The notes beneath the pieces were generated by a model, which worked only from the letters and a program-made list of their open reading frames with translations, ran no database searches and was not told the origin of the DNA. Made by a program: the position numbers and the translations under genes. This document shows positions 26,916-26,990 of a DNA stretch of 64,000 nucleotides, piece after piece. Each line of letters begins with the position of its first letter. The stretch's first letter is position 1. This DNA is from an uncultured Eubacterium sp. (lineage in GTDB: Bacteria > Bacillota > Clostridia > Peptostreptococcales > Anaerovoracaceae): contig CALCFD010000051.1 in the NCBI GenBank assembly GCA_937900695.1, positions 1,953 through 65,952 of the forward strand, read 5' to 3'.

Positions 26916-26990
26916 TGCGGAGTAGCGTAATGGCTAGCGCAGGGGTCTCTAAAACCTCGGGAGTGGGTTCGAATCCCACCTCCGCTGCCA
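26916..26990 (+). tRNA. Suppressor tRNA with anticodon CUA (reads UAG), Gln-like acceptor features
   Basis: Acceptor tgcggag/ctccgct (U1-U72 unpaired, G2-C71, G73), D-arm gcgtaatggctagcgc, anticodon stem ggggt/acctc, loop ctctaaa with CTA at 26949-26951, T-arm gtggg-ttcgaat-cccac, CCA encoded. Confidence 0.75.

What the first reader, a model, noticed from the sequence alone, without database searches (positions are those of the whole stretch)
26916..26990. Phage-encoded amber-suppressor tRNA (anticodon CUA) with tRNA-Gln-like acceptor identity elements
A clean cloverleaf has CTA at loop positions 34-36, with U33 and A37 in place. Positions U1-U72 are unpaired, G2-C71 is a pair, and the discriminator is G73. 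This combination matches the weak 1-72 pair plus G73 features that glutaminyl-tRNA synthetase uses on E. coli tRNA-Gln, whose CUA derivative is the classical supE suppressor. It supplies the mechanism for the TAG recoding finding. Two ordinary tRNA-Gln genes (UUG at 19712, CUG at 19789) are also present.
Basis: seen in the sequence. Interest (0 to 1): 0.8.

Follow-up and report, generated by a model that had tools for sequence, protein, structure and literature searches.

The report
Phage amber suppressor tRNA (TAG→Gln)
A large gut bacteriophage carries its own transfer RNA that reads the stop codon TAG as glutamine, a trick already known from related "code 15" phages. The one unusual detail is a conserved, deliberately unpaired first base pair in the tRNA.

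Summary
ARAGORN and the Rfam tRNA model (59.3 bits) both call a 75-nt tRNA at 26916-26990 (+) with anticodon CUA, U1•U72 unpaired, G2-C71, G73 and an encoded CCA.

The window uses TAG as a sense codon: 110 in-frame TAGs in 32 of 77 candidate ORFs, and all stops are TAA or TGA. TAG means glutamine. Two TAG-free homologs of the 12-TAG lysin have CAA/CAG at 6/12 and 8/12 of those positions (P about 1e-6 and 1e-7). Trp never aligns with TAG.

The closest annotated relative is tRNA-Sup-CTA of phage phAss-1 (NCBI "Caudoviricetes code 15 clade"). This is a new member of a known kind.

The acceptor features fit the bacterial Trp identity set as well as the Gln set, and isotype profiles cannot separate Gln from Trp ancestry. 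Charging by host GlnRS is inferred, because the host is unknown.

The most interesting detail is the pyrimidine•pyrimidine 1:72 mismatch. It is unpaired in 11/11 aligned family members while all 20 other pairs hold (7 of them covary). In the same datasets it is otherwise almost confined to initiator tRNAs.

The parts
26916..26990 (+). Amber-suppressor tRNA gene: 72-nt body through G73 (26987) plus encoded CCA (26988-26990)
   Evidence: ARAGORN; Rfam RF00005 59.3 bits; family covariation
26949..26951 (+). Anticodon CUA (positions 34-36) in the loop C32-U33-CUA-A37-A38
   Evidence: Covariance-model alignment; ARAGORN cloverleaf
26916..26916 (+). U1, unpaired with U72 (26986). This pyrimidine-pyrimidine 1:72 mismatch is conserved in the family
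   Evidence: unpaired in 11/11; 15/41 CUA tRNAs versus 2/191 other viral elongators
26461..26489 (+). Perfect sigma-70-type promoter match, TTGACA-17-TATAAT with TG extension. It is invariant in 5 sister phages and is the likely promoter of the ORF-tRNA-ORF unit (inferred)
   Evidence: Scan; alignment of sister loci
26503..26829 (+). TAG-free 108-aa Cys-rich ORF of unknown function just upstream of the tRNA; syntenic in sister phages
   Evidence: no Pfam or PHROG match
27011..27325 (+). TAG-free 104-aa basic ORF. Its RBS AAGGAGG (26997-27003) lies 6 nt after the tRNA's CCA, so it is probably co-transcribed with the tRNA
46842..48248 (+). Lysin (Phage_lysozyme2 + Amidase_2) with 12 in-frame TAG, 12 CAA and 0 CAG. 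Main client gene used to read the meaning of TAG
45980..46840 (+). NAGPA/SPOR cell-wall protein with 4 in-frame TAG
48245..48580 (+). Small membrane protein after the lysin (holin-like by position and by eye only, no family match) with 1 in-frame TAG
44606..45934 (+). PIN-PhoH protein with 3 in-frame TAG
55337..56245 (+). GIY-YIG protein with 15 in-frame TAG and 0 CAG. Carries YIGQS (CAA) where its paralogs have TAG
57639..58301 (+). GIY-YIG/NUMOD homing endonuclease with 9 in-frame TAG (YVG-TAG-S)
16455..17216 (+). GIY-YIG-motif paralog (motif seen by eye and in the paralog alignment; not scanned against Pfam) with 4 in-frame TAG (YIG-TAG-S)
28104..28841 (+). Cys-rich putative homing-endonuclease paralog (label is mine; not scanned against Pfam) with 5 in-frame TAG. 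TAG alternates with CAA in paralogs 4341-5261 and 39403-40113
19712..19862 (+). Two ordinary tRNA-Gln genes (UUG and CUG), both A1-U72/G73. They are not the source of the suppressor (64% and 57% identity)

Best explanation
This is a functional elongator amber-suppressor tRNA of a large (about 148 kb) gut phage that uses genetic code 15. It pairs its CUA anticodon with in-frame UAG codons and inserts glutamine. This lets the phage translate the TAG-containing genes (lysin and other cell-wall genes, PhoH, many homing endonucleases), while genes for replication and RNA repair are written without TAG.

Shown:
- the gene, its cloverleaf and its anticodon;
- purifying selection on it;
- TAG used as a sense codon;
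- TAG equivalent to Gln codons in homologs.

Inferred:
- It is transcribed with two small TAG-free ORFs from a conserved consensus sigma-70 promoter, so probably by host RNA polymerase before the TAG-rich genes are needed.
- It is charged by a host enzyme, most likely GlnRS. GlnRS would read U35, G73, G2-C71 and G10. The encoded pyrimidine-pyrimidine mismatch at 1:72 would supply, already open, the acceptor end that GlnRS has to unpair. That would compensate for the lost G36 and U38 contacts.
For: Gene and fold:
- ARAGORN and Rfam agree.
- In the family alignment, 20/21 pairs are always paired, 7 pairs show compensatory changes, and 0/500 shuffles reach this.
- The tRNA is nearly invariant in 5 sister phages while the spacer in front of it diverges.

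TAG is a sense codon:
- Long-ORF coverage rises from 0.64 to 0.83 when TAG is read through.
- There are 110 in-frame TAGs, and stops are 72 TAA and 5 TGA.

TAG = Gln:
- TAG-free homologs L005 and L245 have CAA/CAG at 6/12 and 8/12 of the lysin's TAG positions (P = 9e-7 and 8e-8).
- Residues opposite TAG, pooled over six sequences: Gln 50/112, Trp 0, Lys 4, Tyr 3, Ser 4, Leu 1.
- In-window paralogs alternate TAG with CAA at conserved columns.
- TAG-rich genes avoid CAG: CAG:CAA is 10:79 versus 89:111 in TAG-free genes (Fisher P = 1e-8).

Charging:
- Invariant G73, G2-C71, G10 and U35 belong to the bacterial Gln identity set.
- Amber derivatives of tRNA-Trp and of the 1:72-mismatched initiator tRNA are glutaminylated in E. 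coli (PMC9976931).
- No synthetase, amidotransferase or release factor was found in the 57 window ORFs scanned against Pfam.

Expression:
- The TTGACA-17-TGnTATAAT promoter is invariant in 5 phages.
Against: - There are no expression, charging or proteomic data for this phage.
- The host is unknown. S-layer-homology (SLH) domains in sister lysins point to Bacillota. Whether a given Bacillota host has GlnRS is uncertain; from my own knowledge many lack it and use GluRS plus GatCAB.
- G3-C70, G36 and U38 of the E. coli Gln identity set are not met.
- Isotype HMMs score the body as Trp-like unless the anticodon arm is masked.
- From general knowledge of initiator tRNA, a 1:72 mismatch weakens EF-Tu binding, which should cost an elongator some efficiency.
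- Only 64 kb of about 148 kb was seen, so a phage-encoded synthetase or release factor elsewhere is not excluded.
Confidence: 0.8

Rival explanations
1. Same suppressor function, but the body descends from tRNA-Trp (CCA to CUA by one change at position 35), as in the classical E. coli su+7 suppressor, and not from tRNA-Gln. It still ends up carrying Gln because U35 diverts it to GlnRS. U1 in place of A1 would then also act against TrpRS.
For: - Isotype profile HMMs (held-out accuracy 70-79%) rank Trp first for 6 to 10 of 13 family members when only the anticodon is masked (window: Trp 40.8, Gln 33.3 bits in one split).
- The anticodon arm GGUCU-CUA-AAACC is that of phage tRNA-Trp genes with one base changed.
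- U72, G4-C69, G5-C68 and A9 are Trp identity elements and are invariant or present here.
- tRNAscan-SE gave a Trp isotype for 19.4% of 180 phage CUA suppressors (PMC10879173).
Against: - The Trp signal vanishes when the whole anticodon arm is masked. That arm may have converged, because both tRNAs read U-starting codons (A36-A37-A38).
- Family acceptor stems often start UGGGG, and the D arm is identical to that of cellular tRNA-Gln(CUG) genes found in the genome scan.
- Gln ranks first or second by nearest neighbour for 12 of 13 members.
- The Trp reference set is small (15 sequences).
Confidence: 0.35
2. The tRNA is charged by the indirect route: a non-discriminating GluRS makes Glu-tRNA(CUA), and GatCAB amidates it to Gln. 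This would be required if the host is a Bacillota species without GlnRS.
For: - SLH domains in sister lysins suggest a Bacillota host.
- GluRS2 and amidotransferases discriminate at the first base pair: they accept the weak U1-A72 pair and reject G1-C72 (PMC9976931). An open 1:72 with U1 might pass that check.
Against: - The main element for B. subtilis GluRS on tRNA-Gln is a modified U34 (PMC9976931). This tRNA has C34.
- The gut Bacilli tRNA-Gln genes retrieved are nearly all UUG isoacceptors and are only about 58% identical to the suppressor.
- A72, part of the U1-A72 pair that amidotransferases read, is missing.
Confidence: 0.12
3. The conserved 1:72 mismatch marks a special handling step, not synthetase identity. 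Options are initiator-like behaviour (formylation, avoidance of EF-Tu and peptidyl-tRNA hydrolase, initiation at UAG), or a need for 5'-end repair or editing before the tRNA becomes active, giving a timed code switch.
For: - In the same datasets an isolated 1:72 mismatch is otherwise almost confined to initiator tRNA-Met: 22/22 bacterial Met tRNAs of the set, versus 2/191 and 1/246 other elongators.
- The window's acceptor (mismatch, G2-C71, C3-G70, G4-C69) resembles the initiator's formylation determinants (my own knowledge).
- A sister phage encodes a Thg1-like 3'-5' polymerase.
Against: - The 110 TAGs are internal codons, so the tRNA must work in elongation.
- The anticodon stem has U31-A39 (invariant) instead of the third G-C pair, and 11:24 is C-G, the elongator type.
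- C3-G70 is not conserved in the family.
- No Thg1-like gene is in the window or in 187 kb around 24 family loci.
Confidence: 0.06
4. The gene is a decaying or non-functional tRNA, or a pyrrolysine tRNA as ARAGORN's label says, and TAG read-through is provided by something else.
For: ARAGORN prints 'tRNA-Pyl'. The thermodynamic fold of the single sequence does not give a cloverleaf (z = -0.78).
Against: - The label follows from the anticodon alone.
- The cloverleaf is canonical: 5-bp anticodon stem, 4-nt variable loop, G18-G19 and a TTCGAAT T-loop. tRNA-Pyl has a different shape (my own knowledge).
- There is strong covariation and near-invariance among sister phages.
- TAG aligns with Gln, not Lys.
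- No other CUA tRNA is in the window.
Confidence: 0.02

Closest known systems
tRNA-Sup-CTA of phage phAss-1 (OQ749652.1, 62539-62610; proposed genus Phassvirus, NCBI 'Caudoviricetes code 15 clade'; PMC10607447)
   Same: - 88% identical over the whole tRNA.
- Same CUCUAAA loop, 4-nt variable loop, G73, encoded CCA and an unpaired pyrimidine pair at 1:72 (U.C).
- Sits in a tRNA cluster of a >130 kb gut phage with TAG in many genes.
- The authors report a Gln isotype from tRNAscan-SE and no phage synthetase.
   Different: - The rest of the genome shows no DNA similarity in the 8 kb compared, so this is a different phage lineage.
- phAss-1 has three suppressor genes. One adjacent copy has a long variable arm and a paired A1-U72. 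Only one suppressor lies in this window.
- The compensatory change at 3:70 is G-C in phAss-1 and C-G here.
Suppressor tRNAs of TAG-recoded (code 15) gut phages in general: crAss-like and other clades (bioRxiv 10.1101/2021.08.26.457843; PMC9523058; PMC7886860)
   Same: - A phage-encoded CUA tRNA in a low-GC genome infecting a standard-code host.
- TAG is concentrated in lysis and late-type genes and absent from replication genes.
- The code-change gene itself is written in standard code.
- Charging is presumed to be by host GlnRS. TAG->Gln has been validated by metaproteomics in crAss-like phages.
   Different: - No release factor or synthetase is seen here.
- The papers I could read contain no mention of the acceptor stem or a 1:72 mismatch. 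The clade of this phage was not determined.
E. coli supE (tRNA-Gln with CUA anticodon)
   Same: CUA anticodon, G73, G2-C71, G10, A37; inserts Gln at UAG. Basis: established genetics (my own knowledge) and the identity set in PMC9976931.
   Different: - supE is a point mutant of a cellular tRNA-Gln and keeps U1-A72, G3-C70 and U38.
- The phage tRNA has no 1:72 pair, has C3-G70 and A38, and is only 57-64% identical to the phage's own tRNA-Gln genes.
E. coli su+7 (amber suppressor derived from tRNA-Trp, charged with Gln)
   Same: - The anticodon loop CUCUAAA equals the tRNA-Trp loop with C35 changed to U.
- G73, U72, G2-C71, G4-C69, G5-C68 and A9 are shared with the bacterial Trp identity set.
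- Documented precedent that such a molecule accepts Gln (PMC9976931).
   Different: su+7 keeps the A1-U72 pair. Here position 1 is a pyrimidine. Trp ancestry of the phage tRNA is not established.
Amber (CUA) derivative of E. coli initiator tRNA-fMet
   Same: A mismatched 1:72 plus a CUA anticodon gives a large gain in glutamine acceptance (PMC9976931). It is the only other tRNA class with a 1:72 mismatch in my datasets.
   Different: The initiator hallmarks are absent: U31-A39 instead of a third G-C pair, C11-G24, and the tRNA is used at internal codons.
Theta (HDV-like) ribozyme-associated phage suppressor tRNAs (PMC10879173)
   Same: Phage CUA suppressors linked to code 15. Predicted isotypes there are a Gln/Trp mixture.
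   Different: - No ribozyme is found next to this tRNA.
- CCA is encoded and an RBS follows 6 nt later. Only 4.5% of theta-associated tRNAs encode CCA.

Membership tests
tRNA (Rfam RF00005) | Full-length match to the covariance model above the gathering score | tested here: met
   59.3 bits versus 29, model positions 1-71
tRNA (Rfam RF00005) | Cloverleaf supported by covariation among relatives | tested here: met
   20/21 pairs paired in 11/11 sequences, 7 pairs with changes on both sides, 0/500 shuffles reach this
Phage amber-suppressor tRNA of code-15 (TAG->Gln) phages | Anticodon CUA at positions 34-36 | tested here: met
Phage amber-suppressor tRNA of code-15 (TAG->Gln) phages | The genome has in-frame TAG in conserved genes, and TAG is not needed as a stop | tested here: met
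   110 in-frame TAG; stops are 72 TAA and 5 TGA; the lysin, PhoH and GIY-YIG genes are intact only with TAG read through
Phage amber-suppressor tRNA of code-15 (TAG->Gln) phages | TAG positions correspond to Gln in homologs written without TAG | tested here: met
   6/12 and 8/12 positions are CAA/CAG in L005 and L245 (P = 9e-7 and 8e-8); pooled Gln 50/112, Trp 0
Phage amber-suppressor tRNA of code-15 (TAG->Gln) phages | The tRNA is expressed and carries Gln during infection | not testable with these tools
   Needs tRNA-seq, acylation assays or proteomics
Bacterial tRNA-Gln identity set (PMC9976931 Table 1) | G73 | tested here: met
   G at 26987; invariant in the family
Bacterial tRNA-Gln identity set (PMC9976931 Table 1) | U1-A72 (weak pair) | tested here: inconclusive
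   U1 is present but position 72 is U, so there is no pair at all (11/11 unpaired). This is functionally 'weaker than weak' but is not the defined element
Bacterial tRNA-Gln identity set (PMC9976931 Table 1) | G2-C71 | tested here: met
   Invariant, 11/11
Bacterial tRNA-Gln identity set (PMC9976931 Table 1) | G3-C70 | tested here: not met
   C3-G70 here; the family has CG 6, GC 4, AU 1. C3-G70 is, however, the commonest state (42/51) in the gut-bacterial tRNA-Gln genes retrieved
Bacterial tRNA-Gln identity set (PMC9976931 Table 1) | G10 | tested here: met
   G10-C25 invariant
Bacterial tRNA-Gln identity set (PMC9976931 Table 1) | Anticodon-loop elements U35, G36, A37, U38 | tested here: not met
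   U35 and A37 are present. Position 36 is A, as required of any amber suppressor, and position 38 is A
Bacterial tRNA-Gln identity set (PMC9976931 Table 1) | The body scores best as Gln in isotype models | tested here: inconclusive
   Home-made HMMs give Trp > Gln with the arm included and no clear winner with the arm masked. By nearest neighbour Gln is first or second for 12/13 members. tRNAscan-SE was not available
Bacterial tRNA-Trp identity set (PMC9976931 Table 1) | G73, G2-C71, G4-C69, G5-C68, A9 | tested here: met
   All present and invariant in the family
Bacterial tRNA-Trp identity set (PMC9976931 Table 1) | A1-U72, G3-C70 and C35 | tested here: not met
   U1 (not A1), C3-G70, U35. 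Trp never aligns with TAG
tRNA-Pyl | Non-canonical shape (long anticodon stem, 3-nt variable loop, small D loop without G18-G19), with pyl genes alongside | tested here: not met
   Canonical 5-bp anticodon stem, 4-nt variable loop, GG in the D loop, TTCGAAT T-loop. No pyl genes among the ORFs scanned. The shape criteria are from my own knowledge
Bacterial initiator tRNA | 1:72 mismatch | tested here: met
   U.U
Bacterial initiator tRNA | Three consecutive G-C pairs at 29-31:39-41, purine11:pyrimidine24, CAU anticodon | tested here: not met
   U31-A39 invariant, C11-G24, anticodon CUA. The criteria are from my own knowledge
Theta-ribozyme-processed phage tRNA (PMC10879173) | An HDV-like ribozyme with its cleavage site within 5 nt of the tRNA 3' end | tested here: not met
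   No ribozyme family hit at E <= 5 in 26400-28200. CCA is encoded and an RBS starts 6 nt downstream. The published theta motif itself was not searched

The most novel reading that the evidence does not exclude
The pyrimidine-pyrimidine mismatch at 1:72 is an evolved identity device. It is conserved in a whole family of phage amber suppressors through compensatory change everywhere else in the cloverleaf, and is otherwise a hallmark of initiator tRNAs. It would present a pre-opened acceptor end that lets a Gln/Trp-hybrid tRNA with a CUA anticodon capture the host's glutamine-charging enzyme efficiently. It may also shut out TrpRS and change how EF-Tu, peptidyl-tRNA hydrolase or the formylase handle the tRNA. 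That would make it a natural design rule for hijacking a host synthetase, with possible use in engineering efficient suppressors.
Probability: 0.35. Interest if true: 0.55.

Novelty: new member of a known kind. Interest (0 to 1): 0.33.

Why it matters
The tRNA explains how this phage reads its many in-frame TAG codons, and any annotation of this genome must use code 15. As a phenomenon it adds one more lineage to a well-described class, so it does not change the picture of phage recoding.

What could matter is the conserved unpaired 1:72 position. The open question in this field is how a host synthetase is made to charge a stop-codon-reading tRNA. This family offers a concrete hypothesis that a handful of in vitro charging assays on 1:72 variants could test.

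Tried and rejected
1. PDB alignments of the TAG-masked lysin and PhoH. The relatives were too distant and the TAG columns fell in variable positions, so the test was uninformative.
2. Tally of 120 database homologs. Gln dominates, but the test is partly circular because many hits are code-15 gene calls. I replaced it with codon-level comparison to loci shown to be TAG-free.
3. Isotype by raw similarity with the anticodon masked. Everything sits at about 70% with mixed isotypes, so this is not decisive.
4. Isotype by home-made profile HMMs. Trp wins only through the anticodon arm, and accuracy is 70-79%, so ancestry is left open.
5. Bacterial-genome scan for the D-arm/T-arm with a free anticodon. 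It did show cellular tRNA-Gln(CUG) genes with the same D arm.
6. Thg1-like 5'-repair idea. No such gene is in the window or in 187 kb around family tRNAs.
7. Theta/HDV ribozyme next to the tRNA. None found.
8. The promoter-like TTGCCA-18-TATATT ending on tRNA position 1. Rejected, because nearly every tRNA in the window is preceded by ...ATAT, so this is a general 5' context and not a promoter.
9. Host inference from GyrB against cultured phages, from cluster names and from the MAG contig L225. All uninformative.
10. Second suppressor at 20315-20430. It is a tRNA-like gene with a 54-nt insert and no CUA loop.
11. Single-sequence MFE fold. It does not recover the cloverleaf, as is common for tRNAs, and was not used.
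Full report
**Observation.** ARAGORN calls a 75-nt tRNA at 26916-26990 (+) with anticodon CTA. The Rfam tRNA model matches 26916-26987 end to end at 59.3 bits against a gathering score of 29. The covariance-model alignment places the 7-nt loop at CUCUAAA, so C34-U35-A36 lie at 26949-26951, flanked by U33 and A37. It flags a single non-canonical pair, 1:72. The acceptor stem is U1.U72, G2-C71, C3-G70, G4-C69, G5-C68, A6-U67, G7-C66, followed by G73 and an encoded CCA. Both have A1-U72 and G73. ARAGORN's label 'Pyl' reflects only the anticodon.

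**Context.** The window (35.8% G+C) holds 28 tRNA genes, a tmRNA, a lysin, PhoH, DNA gyrase subunits, DnaB, a primase, ThyX, an RNA-repair-like gene set and many homing endonucleases. Its proteins recur at 96-97% identity on contigs of up to about 147 kb, and its tRNA region recurs in IMG/VR viral contigs. It is a large phage.

**TAG is a sense codon here.** Reading TAG through raises the fraction of the window covered by ORFs of at least 100 codons from 0.64 to 0.83. A non-overlapping + strand ORF set then has 110 in-frame TAGs in 32 of 77 candidate ORFs, and ends 72 times in TAA and 5 times in TGA. Some short ORFs in the tRNA cluster are probably not genes. Proteins with clear Pfam domains are whole only with read-through: a lysin with 12 TAGs, a GIY-YIG protein with 15, another with 9, PIN-PhoH with 3 and NAGPA/SPOR with 4. 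The largest genes have none.

**TAG means glutamine.**
- Database homologs show Gln as the dominant residue at 8 of the lysin's 12 TAG columns. Many of those proteins come from sister phages called with code 15, so I went to the DNA.
- Sister phage loci L002-L004 do not translate under the standard code and carry their own TAGs.
- Two homologs of about 64% identity, L005 and L245, contain no in-frame TAG. At the window's 12 TAG positions they have CAA or CAG 6 and 8 times. Their background Gln frequencies are 3.3% and 6.2%, giving binomial P = 9e-7 and 8e-8.
- Pooling all six sequences, the residues opposite any TAG are Gln 50 of 112, Asn 15 and Glu 10. The other single-step candidates are rare or absent: Trp 0, Lys 4, Tyr 3, Ser 4, Leu 1.
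- Inside the window, paralogs alternate TAG and CAA at conserved columns. Examples are the GIY-YIG motif YIG-Q-S and three columns of a Cys-rich endonuclease-like family.
- TAG-rich genes nearly lack CAG. CAG:CAA is 10:79 in genes with two or more TAGs and 89:111 in TAG-free genes (Fisher P = 1e-8; Spearman rho = -0.63). This is expected if TAG arises from CAG by a C-to-T change.
- Alignments to PDB proteins were too distant to help.

[quoted passage not shown] NCBI files that phage under 'Caudoviricetes code 15 clade'. Its authors report three CUA suppressors, a Gln isotype from tRNAscan-SE and no phage synthetase (PMC10607447). A pattern scan of viral contigs returned more than 120 loci with the same anticodon arm. 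Among these, 13 distinct short, CCA-ending CUA tRNAs in 24 loci share a pyrimidine at both 1 and 72 together with G73.

On an alignment of 11 of them, all 20 other cloverleaf pairs are formed in every sequence, and 7 pairs carry compensatory double changes. None of 500 shuffles reaches the observed values. The 1:72 position is unpaired in 11 of 11. G2-C71, G4-C69, G5-C68, A9, G10-C25 and G73 are invariant, while 3:70 varies (CG 6, GC 4, AU 1).

In the same datasets an isolated 1:72 mismatch occurs in 15 of 41 distinct CUA tRNAs. Among other elongators it occurs in 2 of 191 (viral) and 1 of 246 (bacterial), giving P = 5e-11. The only other carriers are initiator tRNA-Met genes. In the window itself, the suppressor is the only one of 28 tRNAs with this feature. 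The mismatch is therefore selected, not noise.

**Which isotype is it?** The curated identity sets (PMC9976931) are:
- Gln: G73, U1-A72, G2-C71, G3-C70, G10, U34, U35, G36, A37, U38.
- Trp: G73, A1-U72, G2-C71, G3-C70, G4-C69, G5-C68, A9, C34, C35, A36.

The suppressor meets G73, G2-C71, G10, U35 and A37 of the Gln set and has U1. It also meets G73, G2-C71, G4-C69, G5-C68, A9, C34 and A36 of the Trp set and has U72. It fails G3-C70 in both. C3-G70 is, however, the commonest state in the gut-bacterial tRNA-Gln genes I retrieved (42 of 51).

The other isotype tests gave the following:
- The suppressor is not a recent copy of any window tRNA: 64% and 57% identity to the two tRNA-Gln genes and 63% to tRNA-Trp.
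- Nearest-neighbour identity hovers at 70-74%. Gln is first or second for 12 of 13 members.
- Per-isotype profile HMMs (held-out accuracy 70-79%) prefer Trp when only the anticodon or the loop is masked. They lose that preference when the whole anticodon arm is masked.
- A scan of bacterial genomes found cellular tRNA-Gln(CUG) genes with an identical D arm, a 4-nt variable loop, U1 and G73.

Ancestry is thus unresolved between Gln and Trp. That matches the published Gln/Trp split of tRNAscan-SE calls for phage CUA suppressors (69.4% and 19.4%; PMC10879173). Either way there is precedent for Gln charging. Amber derivatives of tRNA-Trp and of the 1:72-mismatched initiator tRNA both accept glutamine in E. 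coli, because GlnRS reads U35 and the acceptor end (PMC9976931).

**Mechanism (inference).**
- GlnRS has to unpair 1:72 to bend the 3' end into its active site (established structural knowledge, not tested here). An encoded mismatch would supply that state and could offset the loss of G36 and U38.
- The indirect route through GluRS and GatCAB is less likely. B. subtilis-type GluRS relies on a modified U34, and this tRNA has C34. It cannot be excluded, because sister lysins carry S-layer-homology (SLH) domains that point to a Bacillota host.
- No synthetase, amidotransferase or release factor was found in the 57 window ORFs scanned against Pfam. Only 64 kb of the genome was seen.

**Expression (inference).**
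- No HDV-like ribozyme adjoins the tRNA.
- A perfect TTGACA-17-TATAAT promoter with a TG extension (26461-26489) precedes a small TAG-free ORF, then the tRNA, then an RBS 6 nt after the CCA and a second TAG-free ORF.
- This arrangement and the promoter hexamers are invariant in four sister phages, while the spacer before the tRNA diverges.
- This fits the published model in which the code-change gene is written in standard code and made before the recoded genes (bioRxiv 10.1101/2021.08.26.457843).

**Ideas that failed.** A Thg1-like gene in a sister phage suggested 5'-end repair of the mismatched nucleotide. No such gene is in the window or near 24 family loci. Initiator-like function is contradicted by internal TAG use, U31-A39 and C11-G24.

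**Verdict.** It is a phage amber suppressor that makes TAG read as Gln. It is a new member of a known kind, so interest is modest. The conserved unpaired 1:72 position is the one feature that the papers I could read do not discuss, and it gives a testable handle on how the host's charging enzyme is captured.

Noticed in passing
window 17500-17830 (+): A phage-encoded tmRNA: Rfam RF00023 at 69.9 bits, full model. ARAGORN does not find it. It sits inside the tRNA cluster.
   Followed up: partly
window 20315-20430 (+): A tRNA-like gene (Rfam 49.4 bits) with normal acceptor, D and T arms but a 54-nt insert in place of the anticodon arm. Unlike all other tRNAs here it has no encoded CCA. It may be an intron-containing tRNA or a tRNA mimic.
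   Followed up: partly
window 9500-28030, all tRNA genes: Nearly every tRNA is preceded directly by ...ATAT (or TTAT/AAAT), and all but two end in an encoded CCA as indexed by ARAGORN. Adjacent tRNAs are separated by exactly TAT (18950/18954, 19047/19051, 19785/19789). This looks like a uniform processing context.
   Followed up: no
window 28878-43771 (+): A TAG-free, CAG-rich block that looks like an RNA-repair or vault-like module: DUF2828/DUF7788 protein (28878-30383), major-vault-protein-like protein with Vault_3 and MVP shoulder domains (30786-33215), RlaP-like nucleotidyltransferase (33836-34627), phosphoesterases, RNA ligase (38063-39343), AAA_33 kinase-like protein (40961-41494) and a flotillin/Band_7 protein (42245-43771).
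   Followed up: no
window 4341-5261, 13348-14151, 16455-17216, 17917-18315, 25966-26394, 28104-28841, 35969-36472, 39403-40113, 55337-56245, 57639-58301: Heavy load of homing-endonuclease-type genes (GIY-YIG, Cys-rich endonuclease-like paralogs, LAGLIDADG, PD-(D/E)XK). Nearly all are TAG-rich, so mobile genes here are written in the recoded dialect.
   Followed up: partly
window 9512-9602 (+): A 91-nt tRNA with anticodon UAU (called Ile) and a long, class-II-type variable arm. No tRNA-Tyr was called in the window. A similar long 'Ile-UAU' gene is in L225.
   Followed up: partly
window 13348-14151, 15835-16323, 28104-28841: In three ORFs a TAG lies one or two codons before the TAA stop. It could act as a stop before the suppressor is made and be read through harmlessly afterwards.
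   Followed up: no
window 26400-26454 (+): A weak partial tRNA-like match (tRNA-Sec model, 22.7 bits, E = 0.15, cut at the start of the stretch searched) just upstream of the promoter of the suppressor unit. It may be a tRNA remnant or chance.
   Followed up: no
L001 6083-6170 (phAss-1) and other viral loci: A second class of phage CUA tRNAs has a paired A1-U72 or U1-A72, G73 and a long variable arm. In phAss-1 it lies next to the mismatch-type suppressor. Its amino-acid identity is unclear.
   Followed up: no
L225 3309-3383: A contig filed under a bacterial MAG carries a family suppressor (identical to the one in L033) inside an 11-tRNA array. It is most likely a phage contig binned into a bacterial genome.
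   Followed up: partly
L002 3422-4252: A sister code-15 phage encodes a Thg1-like protein (PF04446) among RNA-repair-type genes. No counterpart is in this window.
   Followed up: yes
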